34,897 nt of DNA from a virus (taxonomy: Duplodnaviria > Caudoviricetes). The stretch covers positions 1 through 34,897 of the IMG/VR virus record IMGVR_UViG_3300035492_000032; one strand, 5' to 3'. Positions 1 through 5,670 of this stretch are shown piece by piece; position 1 is the stretch's first letter; each line of letters starts with the position of its first letter. The notes below the pieces were generated by a model. It was not told where the DNA came from, searched no databases, and worked only from the letters and a program-made list of their open reading frames with translations. The translations under genes were made by a program, and so were the position numbers.

Positions 1-147
1 GTCCAGCTTGTCGGAGGCGAATGCGGCGTAGGCGGCCAGCGTGTCGGCGTCGTATGCGTCGAGGGCTTCGTGCACCTGCTCTGCCTCGGAAACGCTGTCA
101 TCCGGGCACGGCTGTTCGCGGCGCCCTATGGGTCCGTAGTGGGTCAT
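1..147 (-). CDS. Phage early-left hypothetical protein, 5' part (MTHYGPIGRREQPCPDDSVSEAEQVHEALDAYDADTLAAYAAFASDKLD...), runs off the window
   Basis: Manually translated open frame from ATG at 147 to the edge with GC3-rich codons. Its apparent native RBS (GAGG-tatccacc) lies on the far side of the IscB element at 1836-1847. Confidence 0.7.
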   Translation of the reverse strand, partial: MTHYGPIGRREQPCPDDSVSEAEQVHEALDAYDADTLAAYAAFASDKLD

Positions 148-1835
148 CAGATTCTGCGCGAGAAACCCCGGCATTCATGCCGGGTAGGGATAGCGCGGCA
201 CGCTCAGCGTGCCCCTGTTCTCGCTGCCTCCTGCTGAGGTTGGGCGCTATCGAGGGTTGGGTTCTGCGCGTAGGCGTAGCCATCAGCGCGCTGGATCAGG
301 ATGCAGTGGCGGTGGGAGATTCCCTGTACCACACCTGCCGGGGTCTGGATGTTGAAGCTGCCGCTCTGGCGCACCGCGACACGGCCCCGGTGGATGCCGG
401 CCTTCTTGCCGCCCGGCACCGAGGCCTTGACCTGATCGCCGGTCTGGAAGCCGAAGTGGCGCTTCTGCCGGGTCAGGTAGCCGCGTGGGAAACCGTGCGC
501 GGTGAGGCGCGTGCGCTGGTACTCGCCACGCCCCGTGGCCTTGATCGACAGCGTGGGCCGTTGCCAGCCGGACACCGCCTCCACCTCGCCGACGCACACC
601 GCATCGAGCGCATGGGTTTTCGGGATGCCCAGCCGGCTACGGTTGTACTTGGTCTGTGCCCCGCTGCCGGTCGCTACCGGCAGGCCGGTATTCAGCAGGG
701 CGGAAAACAGCGCGTTGCGCGTGGCATTTACTGCCGCCGCATCGTGCAGCGGGGTCTTGGCCCTGGCCGTGATCCGGGCCAGCAGCTCGGGCTGGTCCTT
801 CAGGAACGCCTCAATCGGACGATTCCCTTTGCGCTGATTGCATGGCCGGCAGGCCAGGGTCAGGTTGCTCACCCGGTCACTGCCGCCGTTGCTGCGGGGG
901 ATGATGTGCTCGATCTCCAGCGGGACGTTTTCCGCCGCGCAGTAGGCGCAGCGGCGTGACCACTTCTCCAGCAGGTACTCGCGCACGGTGTAGCCGGCCA
1001 GTTCGCCCTGCTGGTACTCCAGCCCGCTGATCTCCGGGCTCTGCATCGCCTGCGGGTCAAACTTCACCCGCTCGACGGCCAGGGCGGTGATCGGTGCCCA
1101 GCGGCGAATGCGGGCGACCCAGCTCAGCGTGGTATCCAGCCGATGGCGCAGGCTGGGTGCCAGCCAGCCGGCTGGCCGGGTGCGGTTGTTGAAGCGCGGG
1201 GCGCGATGGCGCAGGTTCTGGCTGCGGCGGCGGCGGCGGAAGCCCGCTCGCTGCTCCAGCGCCTTGCGGATGGCCGCGCCCCGGTGAACCAGCTCCAGCA
1301 GCGACAGCACCGATACCCGCTTCTGGCGCTCGCGCACCAGGGCCATGCCGGTGAAGCGGCTGCCCGGATCGAGCTTGAGCGTCAGCGGCTGCACGGCACT
1401 GTCGGCCAGCCGGCGATCCACCAGACGGATTACCAGCGGCGCAAGCCGGTGGACGCGGGCACGTCCGCGCTCCAGCAGTAGCCGGGCGCGCTTCTCGCTG
1501 CACGGCATCAGCGGTTTTCCAGTCTTGTCCAGCACATAGACCGCCATGAGCGATCCTCCGGTTTGTTCGTGCCCTTACGGGCCTGGTGACGGAGGGCTTG
1601 CGCCCTCGCTCCCCTCGGGAAGGTGTGCAACCGGCTCCCGCTTGCGCGGCGACCGGAACCTTCGGCGCTTTACCTTTCGCCAGCATGATCCCGGCCTTCC
1701 AGTGCCCGGAACTGAGGAAGCATTCCGTGGTGGGTCGGTTCGACCTGTTGCACACGCAGCCGGCTGGTTACGGCTTTCCCTGGTCAACCCAGCCTGCTAT
1801 CCGCAAGCTCCGGCCTTCAGGCCGTGGTAGTTGAC
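148..1835 (-). mobile_element. Non-autonomous IS200/IS605-superfamily IscB element (omegaRNA + iscB, no tnpA)
   Basis: Starts GTCAACTACC at 1835. Subterminal hairpins with TGAA loops at both ends (CGGCC-TGAA-GGCCG at 1811-1824; CCCGGCA-TGAA-TGCCGGG at 167-184). The 3' flank begins ATGA. Confidence 0.88.
204..1547 (-). CDS. iscB: RNA-guided endonuclease IscB (OMEGA; PLMP, split RuvC, bridge helix, HNH)
   Basis: N-terminal VLDKTGKPLMPC, RuvC-I LDPGSRFTG, Arg-rich RRAGFRRRRR-type helix, RuvC-II VERVKFD, HNH CAYC...EHIIPRSNGGSDRVSNLTLACRPCN, RuvC-III HALDA. Catalytic residues look intact. Confidence 0.97.
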   Translation of the reverse strand: MAVYVLDKTGKPLMPCSEKRARLLLERGRARVHRLAPLVIRLVDRRLADSAVQPLTLKLDPGSRFTGMALVRERQKRVSVLSLLELVHRGAAIRKALEQRAGFRRRRRSQNLRHRAPRFNNRTRPAGWLAPSLRHRLDTTLSWVARIRRWAPITALAVERVKFDPQAMQSPEISGLEYQQGELAGYTVREYLLEKWSRRCAYCAAENVPLEIEHIIPRSNGGSDRVSNLTLACRPCNQRKGNRPIEAFLKDQPELLARITARAKTPLHDAAAVNATRNALFSALLNTGLPVATGSGAQTKYNRSRLGIPKTHALDAVCVGEVEAVSGWQRPTLSIKATGRGEYQRTRLTAHGFPRGYLTRQKRHFGFQTGDQVKASVPGGKKAGIHRGRVAVRQSGSFNIQTPAGVVQGISHRHCILIQRADGYAYAQNPTLDSAQPQQEAARTGAR

Positions 1836-1851
1836 GGTGGATACCTCGGTT
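1556..1851 (-). ncRNA. omegaRNA (HEARO-like): about 280-nt scaffold starting at 1835 plus a 5' guide from the flank (about 1836-1851)
   Basis: Non-coding structured region directly upstream of iscB. GTCAAC (1835-1830) pairs with GTTGAC (1788-1783), and the TGCTTCCTCAGT and CCCGAGGGGAG segments are typical of omegaRNAs. Confidence 0.88.
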
Positions 1852-2026
1852 GCCCGGATGGGCGGGGGAATGAATGCCTGCTACCGATACCCGGCAGGCT
1901 CTGGGCAGGAGTCGTCTTCCGTGACGCCGGATCGGCTCCAGCTGTTTGTTCATGGCGCTACCAGCACCGCGCGCCGTACGGTTATCGCAGACCTGGGGGT
2001 CTGGCCTGGCTGGTTCAGGAGGGGGG

Positions 2027-3419: not shown

Positions 3420-3447
3420 TTTTAAAGAGCGTGGGCTTTTCAGGCCC
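3420..3447 (-). promoter_or_regulatory. nut-like antitermination site: boxB-like hairpin (3447-3433) followed by boxA CGCTCTTTAAAA (3431-3420)
   Basis: Close match to the boxA consensus (C/T)GCTCTTTAACA about 40 nt after the PL start; hairpin GGGCCT-GAAA-AGCCC. Confidence 0.75.
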
Positions 3448-3476: not shown

Positions 3477-3505
3477 AATTTAGAGAACTAAACAAAAGGC
3501 GTCAA
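3477..3505 (-). promoter_or_regulatory. PL promoter (sigma70)
   Basis: TTGACG (3505-3500), 17 bp, TAAATT (3482-3477). Confidence 0.85.
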
Positions 3506-3527
3506 CCTATTTTTAAAGAAAACTTAA
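3479..3527. promoter_or_regulatory. OL operators (14-bp TTTAG-N4-CTAAA type)
   Basis: TTTAGagaaCTAAA at 3479-3492 and TAAAGaaaaCTTAA at 3514-3527; the same motif recurs three times between cI and cro. Confidence 0.8.
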
Positions 3528-3710: not shown

Positions 3711-3935
3711 ATGAATACTTCTGAACTGAAATGGGTACTTTCTTCAAGCCGAAAGCCAGATGACTACCAAGAGTGCCTGGTTTACAGCCCTTGCGAAGGG
3801 TTTCAGATTGCCACCTGGAAAGTGCTGGATGATGACGGGGAGTTCTATGCTCACGCTCAGCCTGAGCCGCTGGCGTCCGAGCAGGCCAGCGTGTGGGCGG
3901 CGCTGCCTCTGATGGACGCCATAGGCTTCGGATAA
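3711..3935 (+). CDS. Hypothetical protein, DUF551-like
   Basis: W..S.RKP...CLV...W..LP pattern typical of small phage DUF551-type proteins. Confidence 0.55.
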   Translation: MNTSELKWVLSSSRKPDDYQECLVYSPCEGFQIATWKVLDDDGEFYAHAQPEPLASEQASVWAALPLMDAIGFG

Positions 3936-3943
3936 CAGCCGCC

Positions 3944-4852
3944 TCAGCTATCGCCCCTGATATCCCTGATCATGCGCCCTAGACCTGCGGCATCACTCTC
4001 AAGCAGAGCAACAACCTCAAGGTTATCGGCAGCAAAAAAACGATCCCCGGCGTCGGCAATCAGCATCGCCTGCTCAATCTTTCCTGGAAGCTCATCGACC
4101 AACTTTGCCCAGAAGGAAAGGTCTTTCGGTCGAAGCGACACAATGCCGTCCTCGCTTAGCCCGCGAAGCTCCTCAAGCCGGGGCACGATGTGCACGTCCA
4201 AAATATCCCTTATTCGGTGGCTGAAGTAATCTAAGCCCCGAATCGTTCCGACCACCTCCTCACGTACAGCGGGCCCGCCTTTCTTGCCTGCGGTCGCGTA
4301 GAATGCTGCAGCCTCGGCTCCTCGAAGCTGCACTACGCGCGTGATGTTCGGGGCTTTTCGGCGCGCGCGATCCGTTAGCGCTTGAAGTGTTTTAGGTGAA
4401 ACGGCACCCCGGAAGCGGCTGCGCAGTTCAAGCTGAGCTTGATCTCGCTGCTGCAGATCCAATATCCCCCGCACAATGCCCGGAATTTCTCCCTGGATAC
4501 CCAGGACCCGCTTTATTCTTAGCTTGCGCTGGTACAGAGCGTCATGGCGGCGCATTTCAGCTTGGAAGTCTGCGTGGAAATGCTTTTTCCCGCAGTCCTT
4601 TCCGATATTTGTCTCAATACCTTCGCCAGTGGTTATGAGGTAGCCATGCCAGTGAGGGCTGCCGCAGTCGCCAATTCCGCACTTAATCTTCGGGCCGGTA
4701 AGGTGATAAGGCGCAACGATACTTCCGAACTGGTGCTGCCCGTTCGGGGCAAAATAAAGGCCGGCTCTATAGGATGGGCGCGCTTGAATGTCGGCGGCGC
4801 TTGCCAGGTCTGGAATGCTTTCCTGATCCGATTGTTCGTACCGCACTGTCAT
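3944..4852 (-). CDS. Unknown 302-aa accessory protein co-oriented with cI (rex-like position), putative N-terminal Zn site
   Basis: Long ORF with RBS GAGG, 47 bp after the cI stop; CGIGDCGSPHWHG...GKDCG motif; helical C-terminus. Confidence 0.8.
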   Translation of the reverse strand: MTVRYEQSDQESIPDLASAADIQARPSYRAGLYFAPNGQHQFGSIVAPYHLTGPKIKCGIGDCGSPHWHGYLITTGEGIETNIGKDCGKKHFHADFQAEMRRHDALYQRKLRIKRVLGIQGEIPGIVRGILDLQQRDQAQLELRSRFRGAVSPKTLQALTDRARRKAPNITRVVQLRGAEAAAFYATAGKKGGPAVREEVVGTIRGLDYFSHRIRDILDVHIVPRLEELRGLSEDGIVSLRPKDLSFWAKLVDELPGKIEQAMLIADAGDRFFAADNLEVVALLESDAAGLGRMIRDIRGDS

Positions 4853-4899: not shown

Positions 4900-5607
4900 C
4901 TAGAGCCCGGTTATCTTCGCGTCCACCACGCGCCCAATCAGCCGCCACTCGTCGTCCATCTCAACCTGGTTGAACGCTGGGTTAAGCGGCACAAGGTAGG
5001 CAGTTCCCGCGTCGCGCACGTACTGCTTGAAGGTGGTTTCGCCGTCGCGATGCTTGGCGATGTAGAACTTGCCGCTGATCACGTCGAAGCCTTCAGGGCG
5101 CACAAGGATCGGGGTGCCTGGCGGAAAGCTTGGCGGCGTCTCCGAGGTCATCGACCTACCCTTTACCCTGAGCCAATAGCCATGTTCGCCAGCGTTCTCG
5201 GTTGACTCCAGCATCTCCTCGCCGTCGCCTGGGTAGTAGTTATCCGGCGACTCTGCTCGCTCGCCAGCGGCCACCCAGCTGATAAGAGGGTAAGCACGCG
5301 GGGCGCGACGTGGCTGCAATGCGGGGGCGACGTTTGAGTGCTCGGCATTGCTTGCGTCGTCCATGTCCAGCCACGGCTTTTCCAGGCTCAGGCCTTCAGG
5401 AACTGGCTGGCCCTCTCCCGTAGCAAGCCATCTTGCAGAGCATCGAAGGGCCTTAGCGAGGGCCATCAGGTTTTCGCCGCTGAGTTTGTTAGTGCCGCTT
5501 TTCCAGAAGGTGATCGTCGTCTTGGAGACCTTGACGCGCTTGGCTAACTCGGTCTGAGTCATGCCAGTTTCCTTCAGGCGCTGAGCCAGTCTGTCTTTGA
5601 ATTCCAT
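4900..5607 (-). CDS. cI: CI-like phage repressor (XRE HTH + S24 autopeptidase)
   Basis: HTH TQTELAKRVKVSKTTITFW; AAG cleavage site; GRSM serine and TFKQ lysine motifs. Confidence 0.95.
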   Translation of the reverse strand: MEFKDRLAQRLKETGMTQTELAKRVKVSKTTITFWKSGTNKLSGENLMALAKALRCSARWLATGEGQPVPEGLSLEKPWLDMDDASNAEHSNVAPALQPRRAPRAYPLISWVAAGERAESPDNYYPGDGEEMLESTENAGEHGYWLRVKGRSMTSETPPSFPPGTPILVRPEGFDVISGKFYIAKHRDGETTFKQYVRDAGTAYLVPLNPAFNQVEMDDEWRLIGRVVDAKITGL

Positions 5608-5608
5608 A

Positions 5609-5670
5609 TTTAGGATTCTAAAGCTTTCCAGTGTTTAGATTCCTTGCCTTTCGCTGTTAAGAGTCCTAAA
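5609..5670. promoter_or_regulatory. OR operators (three 14-bp sites)
   Basis: TTTAGgattCTAAA 5609-5622, TTTAGattcCTTGC 5634-5647, TTAAGagtcCTAAA 5657-5670. Confidence 0.8.
5615..5643 (-). promoter_or_regulatory. PRM-like promoter, probably giving a leaderless cI mRNA
   Basis: -10 TAGAAT at 5620-5615 lies 7 nt before the cI ATG; weak -35; no SD. Confidence 0.6.

What the first reader, a model, noticed from the sequence alone, without database searches (positions are those of the whole stretch)
204..1851. Phage-borne, catalytically intact OMEGA nuclease under PL control: possible homing or inter-phage weapon
Seen: all RuvC (D, E, H/D) and HNH motifs are intact, no tnpA is present in the window, and the element is co-oriented with the early-left operon downstream of PL/OL. 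Inference: it would be made on induction or infection and could cut co-infecting or co-resident relatives carrying the empty allele. The carrier is immune because guide and TAM are 1.7 kb apart; I found no intact guide+ATGA target in the window. Phage recombination functions could then copy the element across (RNA-guided homing).
Basis: inference. Interest (0 to 1): 0.7.

Follow-up and report, generated by a model that had tools for sequence, protein, structure and literature searches.

The report
IscB transposon spreading among related phages
A small jumping gene for an RNA-guided DNA cutter (IscB) sits at the same spot in at least seven otherwise different temperate phages, and most relatives that lack it carry the exact sequence it is predicted to cut, so it likely copies itself between phages; this is a known kind of element in a good setting for a test.

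Summary
Observation confirmed. Window 148-1835 (minus strand) is a 1,688-bp non-autonomous ISC2 element: HEARO/omega-RNA, iscB with all RuvC/HNH residues, inserted at N|ATGA between a gene's ribosome-binding site and its ATG. It lies downstream of a PL-like promoter whose operators match those at cI/cro. No self-target. New: the empty allele is common (60 of 93 distinct phage alleles are perfect guide+ATGA targets, 2 are filled). Near-identical copies (about 99.5%) sit at this one site in at least seven phage backgrounds; the three whose cI could be compared differ. Against over-reading: lack of tnpA and co-orientation are family norms (Meers et al.), and so is start-codon insertion (27 of 33 related ends here). 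The site is a mosaic linker across which neutral modules spread as widely, and the filled allele is rare. Expression and cleavage were not shown. Best reading: a selfish element that likely homes between phages; a domesticated weapon is unsupported. TnpB gene drive is published for plasmids; I found no experimental phage case for IscB. This scan noted similar phage-borne IscB elements on other DNA. New member of a known kind.

The parts
144..147 (-). Target site / predicted TAM ATGA; its ATG is the start codon of the downstream phage gene
   Evidence: Empty alleles read guide|ATGA directly (join 147-1836); several BLAST hits to related elements start or end here
148..203 (-). TAM-side transposon end with a subterminal hairpin (7-bp stem), predicted TnpA-binding end
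   Evidence: DNA fold; similar ends in related elements
204..1547 (-). iscB, 447 aa, RuvC and HNH motifs intact
1603..1835 (-). HEARO/omega-RNA scaffold starting GTCAAC at the element end; two changes private to this copy (1825, 1728) each break a G-C pair
1836..1851 (-). Flank-derived guide (about 16 nt), part of a conserved phage linker that includes a GAGG ribosome-binding-like motif
   Evidence: 22-nt exact match in 82 viral contigs, 80 of them without the element
1..147 (-). 5' part of the downstream hypothetical gene (cut by the contig end); 71 aa in two carriers, 119 aa in PS-1; no family hit
3420..3447 (-). Hairpin followed by a boxA-like 12-mer: putative antitermination (nut-like) site; the boxA label is recalled
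   Evidence: Same 3' motif after varied hairpins in 17 of 80 related loci within the DNA held
3477..3527 (-). PL-like promoter (-35 at 3505, -10 ending at 3477) with two operator-like palindromes (3479-3492, 3514-3527)
4900..5607 (-). cI-like repressor (HTH plus S24 peptidase)
5609..5670 (.). Two operator-like palindromes between cI and cro, same motif as at PL

Best explanation
This is a non-autonomous ISC2 (IscB plus omega-RNA) insertion sequence sitting at one conserved linker of a mosaic family of temperate phages, and it likely spreads by RNA-guided homing: it is predicted to be transcribed from the phage's leftward early promoter, to cut the empty allele of a co-infecting or resident relative, and to be copied into the break by recombination. 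Shown: boundaries, intact motifs, omega-RNA, the common empty allele, one site in at least seven backgrounds, no self-target. Inferred: one original insertion by a TnpA supplied in trans; repression by CI in the lysogen and read-through from PL in lytic growth; cleavage of guide+ATGA; repair by ERF/YqaJ or host RecA. Harm to rival phages would be a by-product of a selfish element, not a domesticated function.
For: Precise insertion with no duplication at N|ATGA, as described for proteobacterial ISC2 (PMC4810608 passages). 60 of 93 distinct alleles are perfect 16-nt+ATGA targets, and 12 more match the 8 TAM-proximal bases. Most read ATGAA, the TAM measured for GstIscB. The element is at this same site in 2 of 2 viral contigs found with an element-specific pattern and in 5 of 5 DNA runs laid. 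Copies are about 99.4-99.8% identical, while flank likeness ends 29-190 bp upstream and 50-85 bp downstream. The window's cI is 25% and 35% identical to those of the two complete carriers, so carriers likely belong to different immunity groups and can meet relatives in one cell. The window joins the element to a minority flank allele (ATGA-CC, also seen in 5 empty contexts) within 4 bp of the end, whereas the 7 other copies read ATGA-AG; a junction at the cut site is what break-driven recombination would give. Precedent: IscB cuts its own donor joint, and TnpB drives an IS through plasmids without TnpA.
Against: The filled allele is rare: 2 of 93 distinct alleles (the window's own record is left out of these scans). 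Empty alleles break at the same flank positions and show 38 upstream contexts in 66 loci. One neutral module is shared at 99% or more by 7 of those 66 loci. Ordinary mosaic recombination therefore explains the spread equally well. The ATGA-CC junction is one case, and the change also creates a short direct repeat, so it could have arisen more than once. 20 of 82 contigs with the exact guide read ATGT and 4 have an extra base, so about a third are probably resistant. This copy carries two private stem-breaking omega-RNA changes (-123.4 vs -130.5 kcal/mol). There is no expression or activity data.
Confidence: 0.52

Rival explanations
1. Passive passenger: one old insertion, since shuffled among phages by ordinary linker recombination; the nuclease is weak, rarely meets a target, or matters only after rare excision.
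For: Low frequency; flank breakpoints shared with empty alleles; neutral modules as widespread; private changes in several copies, including G221D/E177G, D251H, a 3-bp deletion and the window's stem breaks.
Against: No frameshift, stop or catalytic-site change was listed in any of the 8 copies seen (difference tables partly cut); most relatives are perfect targets; the ATGA-CC junction lies at the predicted cut site.
Confidence: 0.3
2. Domesticated inter-phage weapon: kept because destroying relatives with the empty allele benefits the carrier phage, as the PhiPA3 intron endonuclease does against PhiKZ.
For: The target is a family-wide conserved linker with the ribosome-binding site and start codon; expression would be early; carriers differ in cI; precedent for protein-guided enzymes (PMC11620839 abstract).
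Against: Both transposon ends are intact. The guide is simply the insertion flank and has not been retargeted. The allele is rare. A sister element has a different flank, and related elements sit at many sites in plasmids, genomes and other phages. The insertion separates a gene from its ribosome-binding-like motif, a possible cost.
Confidence: 0.12
3. Repeated independent TnpA-mediated insertion into a hot spot.
For: Transposition would leave flanks unconverted, as at the ATGA-CC junction; these elements favour start codons (27 of 33 sites vs 31% background).
Against: 224 ATGA sites in the window alone, yet every near-identical DNA copy seen is at one site; no tnpA in carriers; no copy above 81% identity in 401 family genomes searched (one genome per species).
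Confidence: 0.06

Closest known systems
ISC2 transposons with N|ATGA target, e.g. ISC2-1_HM and ISC2-1_MS (Kapitonov et al. 2016, PMC4810608; passages read)
   Same: Non-autonomous, iscB only, size about 1.7 kb, 5'-GTCA start, insertion 5' of ATGA without duplication, subterminal hairpins
   Different: Here in a phage early operon, at a single site shared across many phage backgrounds rather than multi-copy in one chromosome
GstIscB / ISGst5 (Meers et al., 10.1101/2023.03.14.532601; passages read)
   Same: Guide from the flank, dependence on upstream transcription, TAM TTCAT (= ATGAA on the other strand), predicted cleavage of the empty joint
   Different: Shown there as restoration after TnpA excision in a chromosome; here no tnpA, and the likely target is an orthologous site in another phage
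TnpB/IS605 gene drive in plasmids (Mears et al., 10.1101/2025.02.20.638934; abstract and passages)
   Same: RNA-guided cutting of the IS-free allele of a related replicon, independent of TnpA
   Different: TnpB and plasmids; the words phage and IscB do not occur in its main text
Phage homing endonucleases such as PhiPA3 gp210 (PMC11620839; abstract) and T4 SegF/SegB (review PMC13565253; passages)
   Same: A nuclease that cuts a co-infecting relative, giving homing or exclusion
   Different: Protein-guided, intron-borne or free-standing; this one is RNA-guided and transposon-borne, and its activity is untested

Membership tests
IscB / OMEGA (HEARO) | RRXRR/PLMP N-terminus, split RuvC with inserted HNH, 400-500 aa | tested here: met
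IscB / OMEGA (HEARO) | Structured omega-RNA upstream of the ORF, beginning at the element end | tested here: met
   RF02033 positions 1-211 of 211, 101.9 bits
IscB / OMEGA (HEARO) | RNA-guided, TAM-dependent dsDNA cleavage | not testable with these tools
   TAM inferred from insertion sites: ATGAA 21, ATGAT 5, ATGAC 4, ATGAG 4 of 34 ends
ISC2 non-autonomous IS200/IS605 element | Precise insertion 5' of ATGA with no target duplication | tested here: met
   Empty vs filled alleles
ISC2 non-autonomous IS200/IS605 element | Subterminal hairpins at both ends; no tnpA in the element | tested here: met
ISC2 non-autonomous IS200/IS605 element | Mobilised in trans by a Y1 transposase (copies at other sites) | tested here: inconclusive
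   Host genome not held. One low-depth RNA-run contig shows a sister end (about 95%) with another flank; near-identical DNA copies all share one site
Homing element (allelic, non-restorative) | Cognate empty allele in related replicons, self protected by the insertion | tested here: met
Homing element (allelic, non-restorative) | Spread beyond neutral expectation, with short co-conversion tracts | tested here: inconclusive
   Short shared flanks, but the same breakpoints occur in empty alleles and neutral modules spread as widely
Homing element (allelic, non-restorative) | Biased inheritance in crosses that depends on the nuclease | not testable with these tools
   needs co-infection experiments
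Domesticated phage RNA-guided effector | Loss of transposon ends or a guide aimed at something other than the insertion flank | tested here: not met
   Both ends intact; guide equals the donor flank

The most novel reading that the evidence does not exclude
A natural RNA-guided gene drive between phages: IscB, programmed by chance against a linker conserved across a large mosaic phage family, is invading phages of different immunity groups by cut-and-copy homing without a transposase, excludes empty-allele rivals along the way, and is selecting escape alleles at the target (seed changes, ATGT start).
Probability: 0.3. Interest if true: 0.68.

Novelty: new member of a known kind. Interest (0 to 1): 0.36.

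Why it matters
A 2026 review treats homing of OMEGA transposons into orthologous sites of co-infecting phages as theoretical and cites only the plasmid case (PMC13565253, section 6.1). This locus offers a concrete test: a defined element, a cultured empty-allele phage (PS-1, which carries the perfect target), natural mismatch alleles as controls, and likely CI-controlled expression. If homing is shown, RNA-guided gene drive would extend to phages and give one more force behind phage mosaicism. Without that experiment the element itself is ordinary.

Tried and rejected
Host genome search for tnpA or further copies: not possible, the held genome is the 34.9-kb virus record only. Y1 hits in three cellular genomes with distant relatives of the element were not tied to this element. 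Expression: three RNA runs laid hold only short contigs of related elements (about 90-99%), including pieces over the omega-RNA region and one empty-allele contig. Contigs cannot show strand, start or level, so this is no evidence for expression in this phage. An element-specific pattern found 0 matches in metagenome contigs. The alternative flank from run X17 found 0 matches in viral contigs, so that second site is unplaced. A first operator pattern with a 5-base spacer was wrong and was replaced. Promoter and terminator scans alone are at chance level. The idea that every ATGA-CC empty allele is an escape mutant was weakened when a perfect-target one appeared. The idea that R304S disables the enzyme was dropped, since S is common at that position in homologs. 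The downstream gene has no PHROG or Pfam family. No structure prediction was run; family membership was already clear.

Full report
Setting. The window is a whole virus record, about 68% complete: a lambda-like temperate phage with cI, cro-like, cII, O/DnaB, lysis, head and tail genes. The nearest named phage is Pseudomonas phage PS-1 (27% of the query covered at 86%). Perfect-target empty alleles occur in 2 of 401 genomes of that bacterial family searched, so a Pseudomonas-type host is inferred.

The element. iscB (204-1547, minus) has RRXRR and HNH domains and aligns to solved IscB proteins. RuvC D60, E159, H312/D315 and HNH E213/H214, N228, N237 are present and unchanged in the 17 close proteins compared. 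A full-length HEARO RNA lies at 1603-1835. Empty alleles fix the boundaries: the element is 148-1835, inserted without duplication between the flank ending at 1836 and ATGA at 147-144. That ATG starts a hypothetical gene, and the guide holds its GAGG ribosome-binding-like motif. This matches ISC2 elements with N|ATGA targets (PMC4810608, passages). Landing on start codons is a family trait: 27 of 33 related ends open an ORF of 60 aa or more, against 31% of all ATGA (sites with under 400 nt downstream and one end without ATGA were dropped). There is no tnpA in the window or in two complete carriers, but only about 1.5% of iscB genes have one nearby.

Control of expression. The guide lies outside the element, so transcription must enter from the flank; Meers et al. 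state this and report same-strand bias for the family. Here the candidate is a -35/-10 pair at 3505/3477, alone at chance level. It is overlapped by a palindrome found 4 times in the window, twice here and twice between cI and cro (pattern chosen after inspection). A hairpin plus boxA-like motif (label recalled) follows at 3447-3420 and recurs in 17 of 80 related loci. CI-repressed, antiterminated read-through over 1.6 kb is therefore plausible but inferred. The RNA runs gave nothing usable.

Targets. A 22-nt flank pattern hit 82 viral contigs: 55 continue with ATGA, 20 with ATGT, 4 with an extra base, 1 with ATGC, and 2 are filled. A pattern in the downstream gene hit 87 viral and 36 metagenome stretches. 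After dropping duplicates, chance matches and rows with short flanks, 93 distinct alleles remain: 60 perfect 16-nt+ATGA, 12 with distal mismatches only, 17 with seed mismatches, 2 without ATGA, 2 filled. The site is a conserved linker in hypervariable DNA: 38 upstream contexts among 66 loci. Carriers have no second target. A lysogen that also holds an empty-allele prophage would not be immune.

Spread. Always the same site; copies are about 99.4-99.8% identical; flanks diverge 29-190 bp upstream and 50-85 bp downstream. Run X3 looks the same as L012, leaving at least seven backgrounds. The window's cI is 25% and 35% identical to those of the two complete carriers. ERF and YqaJ genes lie 1.7-3.2 kb downstream in one carrier. 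The window alone reads ATGA-CC, a flank allele also present in five empty contexts, so its junction with that allele lies within 4 bp of the element end unless the change recurred. All this fits homing. It does not prove it: empty alleles break at the same places, a neutral module is shared at 99% or more by 7 of 66 loci, and the filled allele is rare. One unexplained point: 4 of 5 ATGA-CC empty alleles carry seed mismatches against 13 of 84 ATGAA alleles (Fisher p = 0.004), but the test is post hoc and two of the four share one change.

Still an IS family. One RNA-run contig (depth 3) shows a sister end, about 95% identical, with a different flank. Proteins named from P. aeruginosa form a sister lineage about 97% identical whose sites I could not examine. 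Elements about 80% identical lie in plasmids and genomes at many other sites. A different IscB element occupies at least three sites in cultured Ralstonia phages, with an exact empty allele in Cimandef.

What is known. IscB cuts its donor joint and promotes retention (Meers preprint, passages). TnpB drives an IS through plasmids without TnpA (Mears preprint, abstract and passages). HEARO nucleases in viral genomes are noted (PMC9755519, passages and one section). Protein-guided phage endonucleases exclude competitors (PMC11620839, abstract). A review calls phage homing by these transposons theoretical (PMC13565253, passages and section 6.1). Searches (listings and abstract starts only) showed no experimental phage case for IscB. 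I read no supplements, bioRxiv supplements are closed, and Altae-Tran 2021 was not read; any of these may list phage-borne cases. This scan has unchecked notes of similar elements in other phages.

Verdict. Real, intact-looking, ordinary in kind. Most likely a selfish element that homes between related phages (0.52); passenger 0.30; weapon 0.12; repeated insertion 0.06. Interest 0.36, resting on how directly it can be tested.

Noticed in passing
L003:2501-4233, L311, L313, L312 (Ralstonia phages Heva, Adzire, Claudette, Cimandef): One 1,728-bp IscB element (99-99.9% identical copies), annotated as HNH endonuclease or hypothetical protein, occupies at least three different sites across phage genera; Cimandef carries the exact empty allele of the Heva site followed by ATGA.
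   Followed up: partly
L094, L095, L098, L101 and plasmid locus L146: A related element (about 80%) shares one site in four Pseudomonas-family genomes, and L101 has a different 5' end there; a plasmid copy lies between traU and a nuclease-domain gene, starting at that gene's ATG. A possible plasmid parallel of allelic spread.
   Followed up: no
window 142-147 and loci L088-L090, L254, L258: The ATGA-CC flank allele is enriched for seed mismatches among empty alleles (4 of 5 vs 13 of 84; post hoc); possibly escape alleles.
   Followed up: partly
window 638, 729, 1728, 1825: Four of the six changes that separate this copy from L012 are G>T on the plus strand; two break omega-RNA stem pairs.
   Followed up: partly
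window 3420-3447: Hairpin-then-boxA-like order, with several interchangeable hairpin types in relatives, suggests an antitermination specificity module; no N-like gene was identified.
   Followed up: partly
window 3711-4852: Two genes between PL and cI: a 74-aa ORF and a 302-aa ORF (phrog_7003, unknown function) in the slot where lysogen-expressed accessory genes usually lie; one carrier has DUF3800 there.
   Followed up: no
L002:3001-3088 (phage phita81A): A similar TAM-side end plus ATGA flanks a different, unannotated gene, probably an IS605-type element sharing this end.
   Followed up: no
window 1836-1870 and 87-147: The linker and the first roughly 17 codons of the downstream gene are conserved while the rest of that gene and the upstream gene are swapped freely (17 downstream contexts in 44 loci): a mosaic exchange point inside a coding sequence.
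   Followed up: partly
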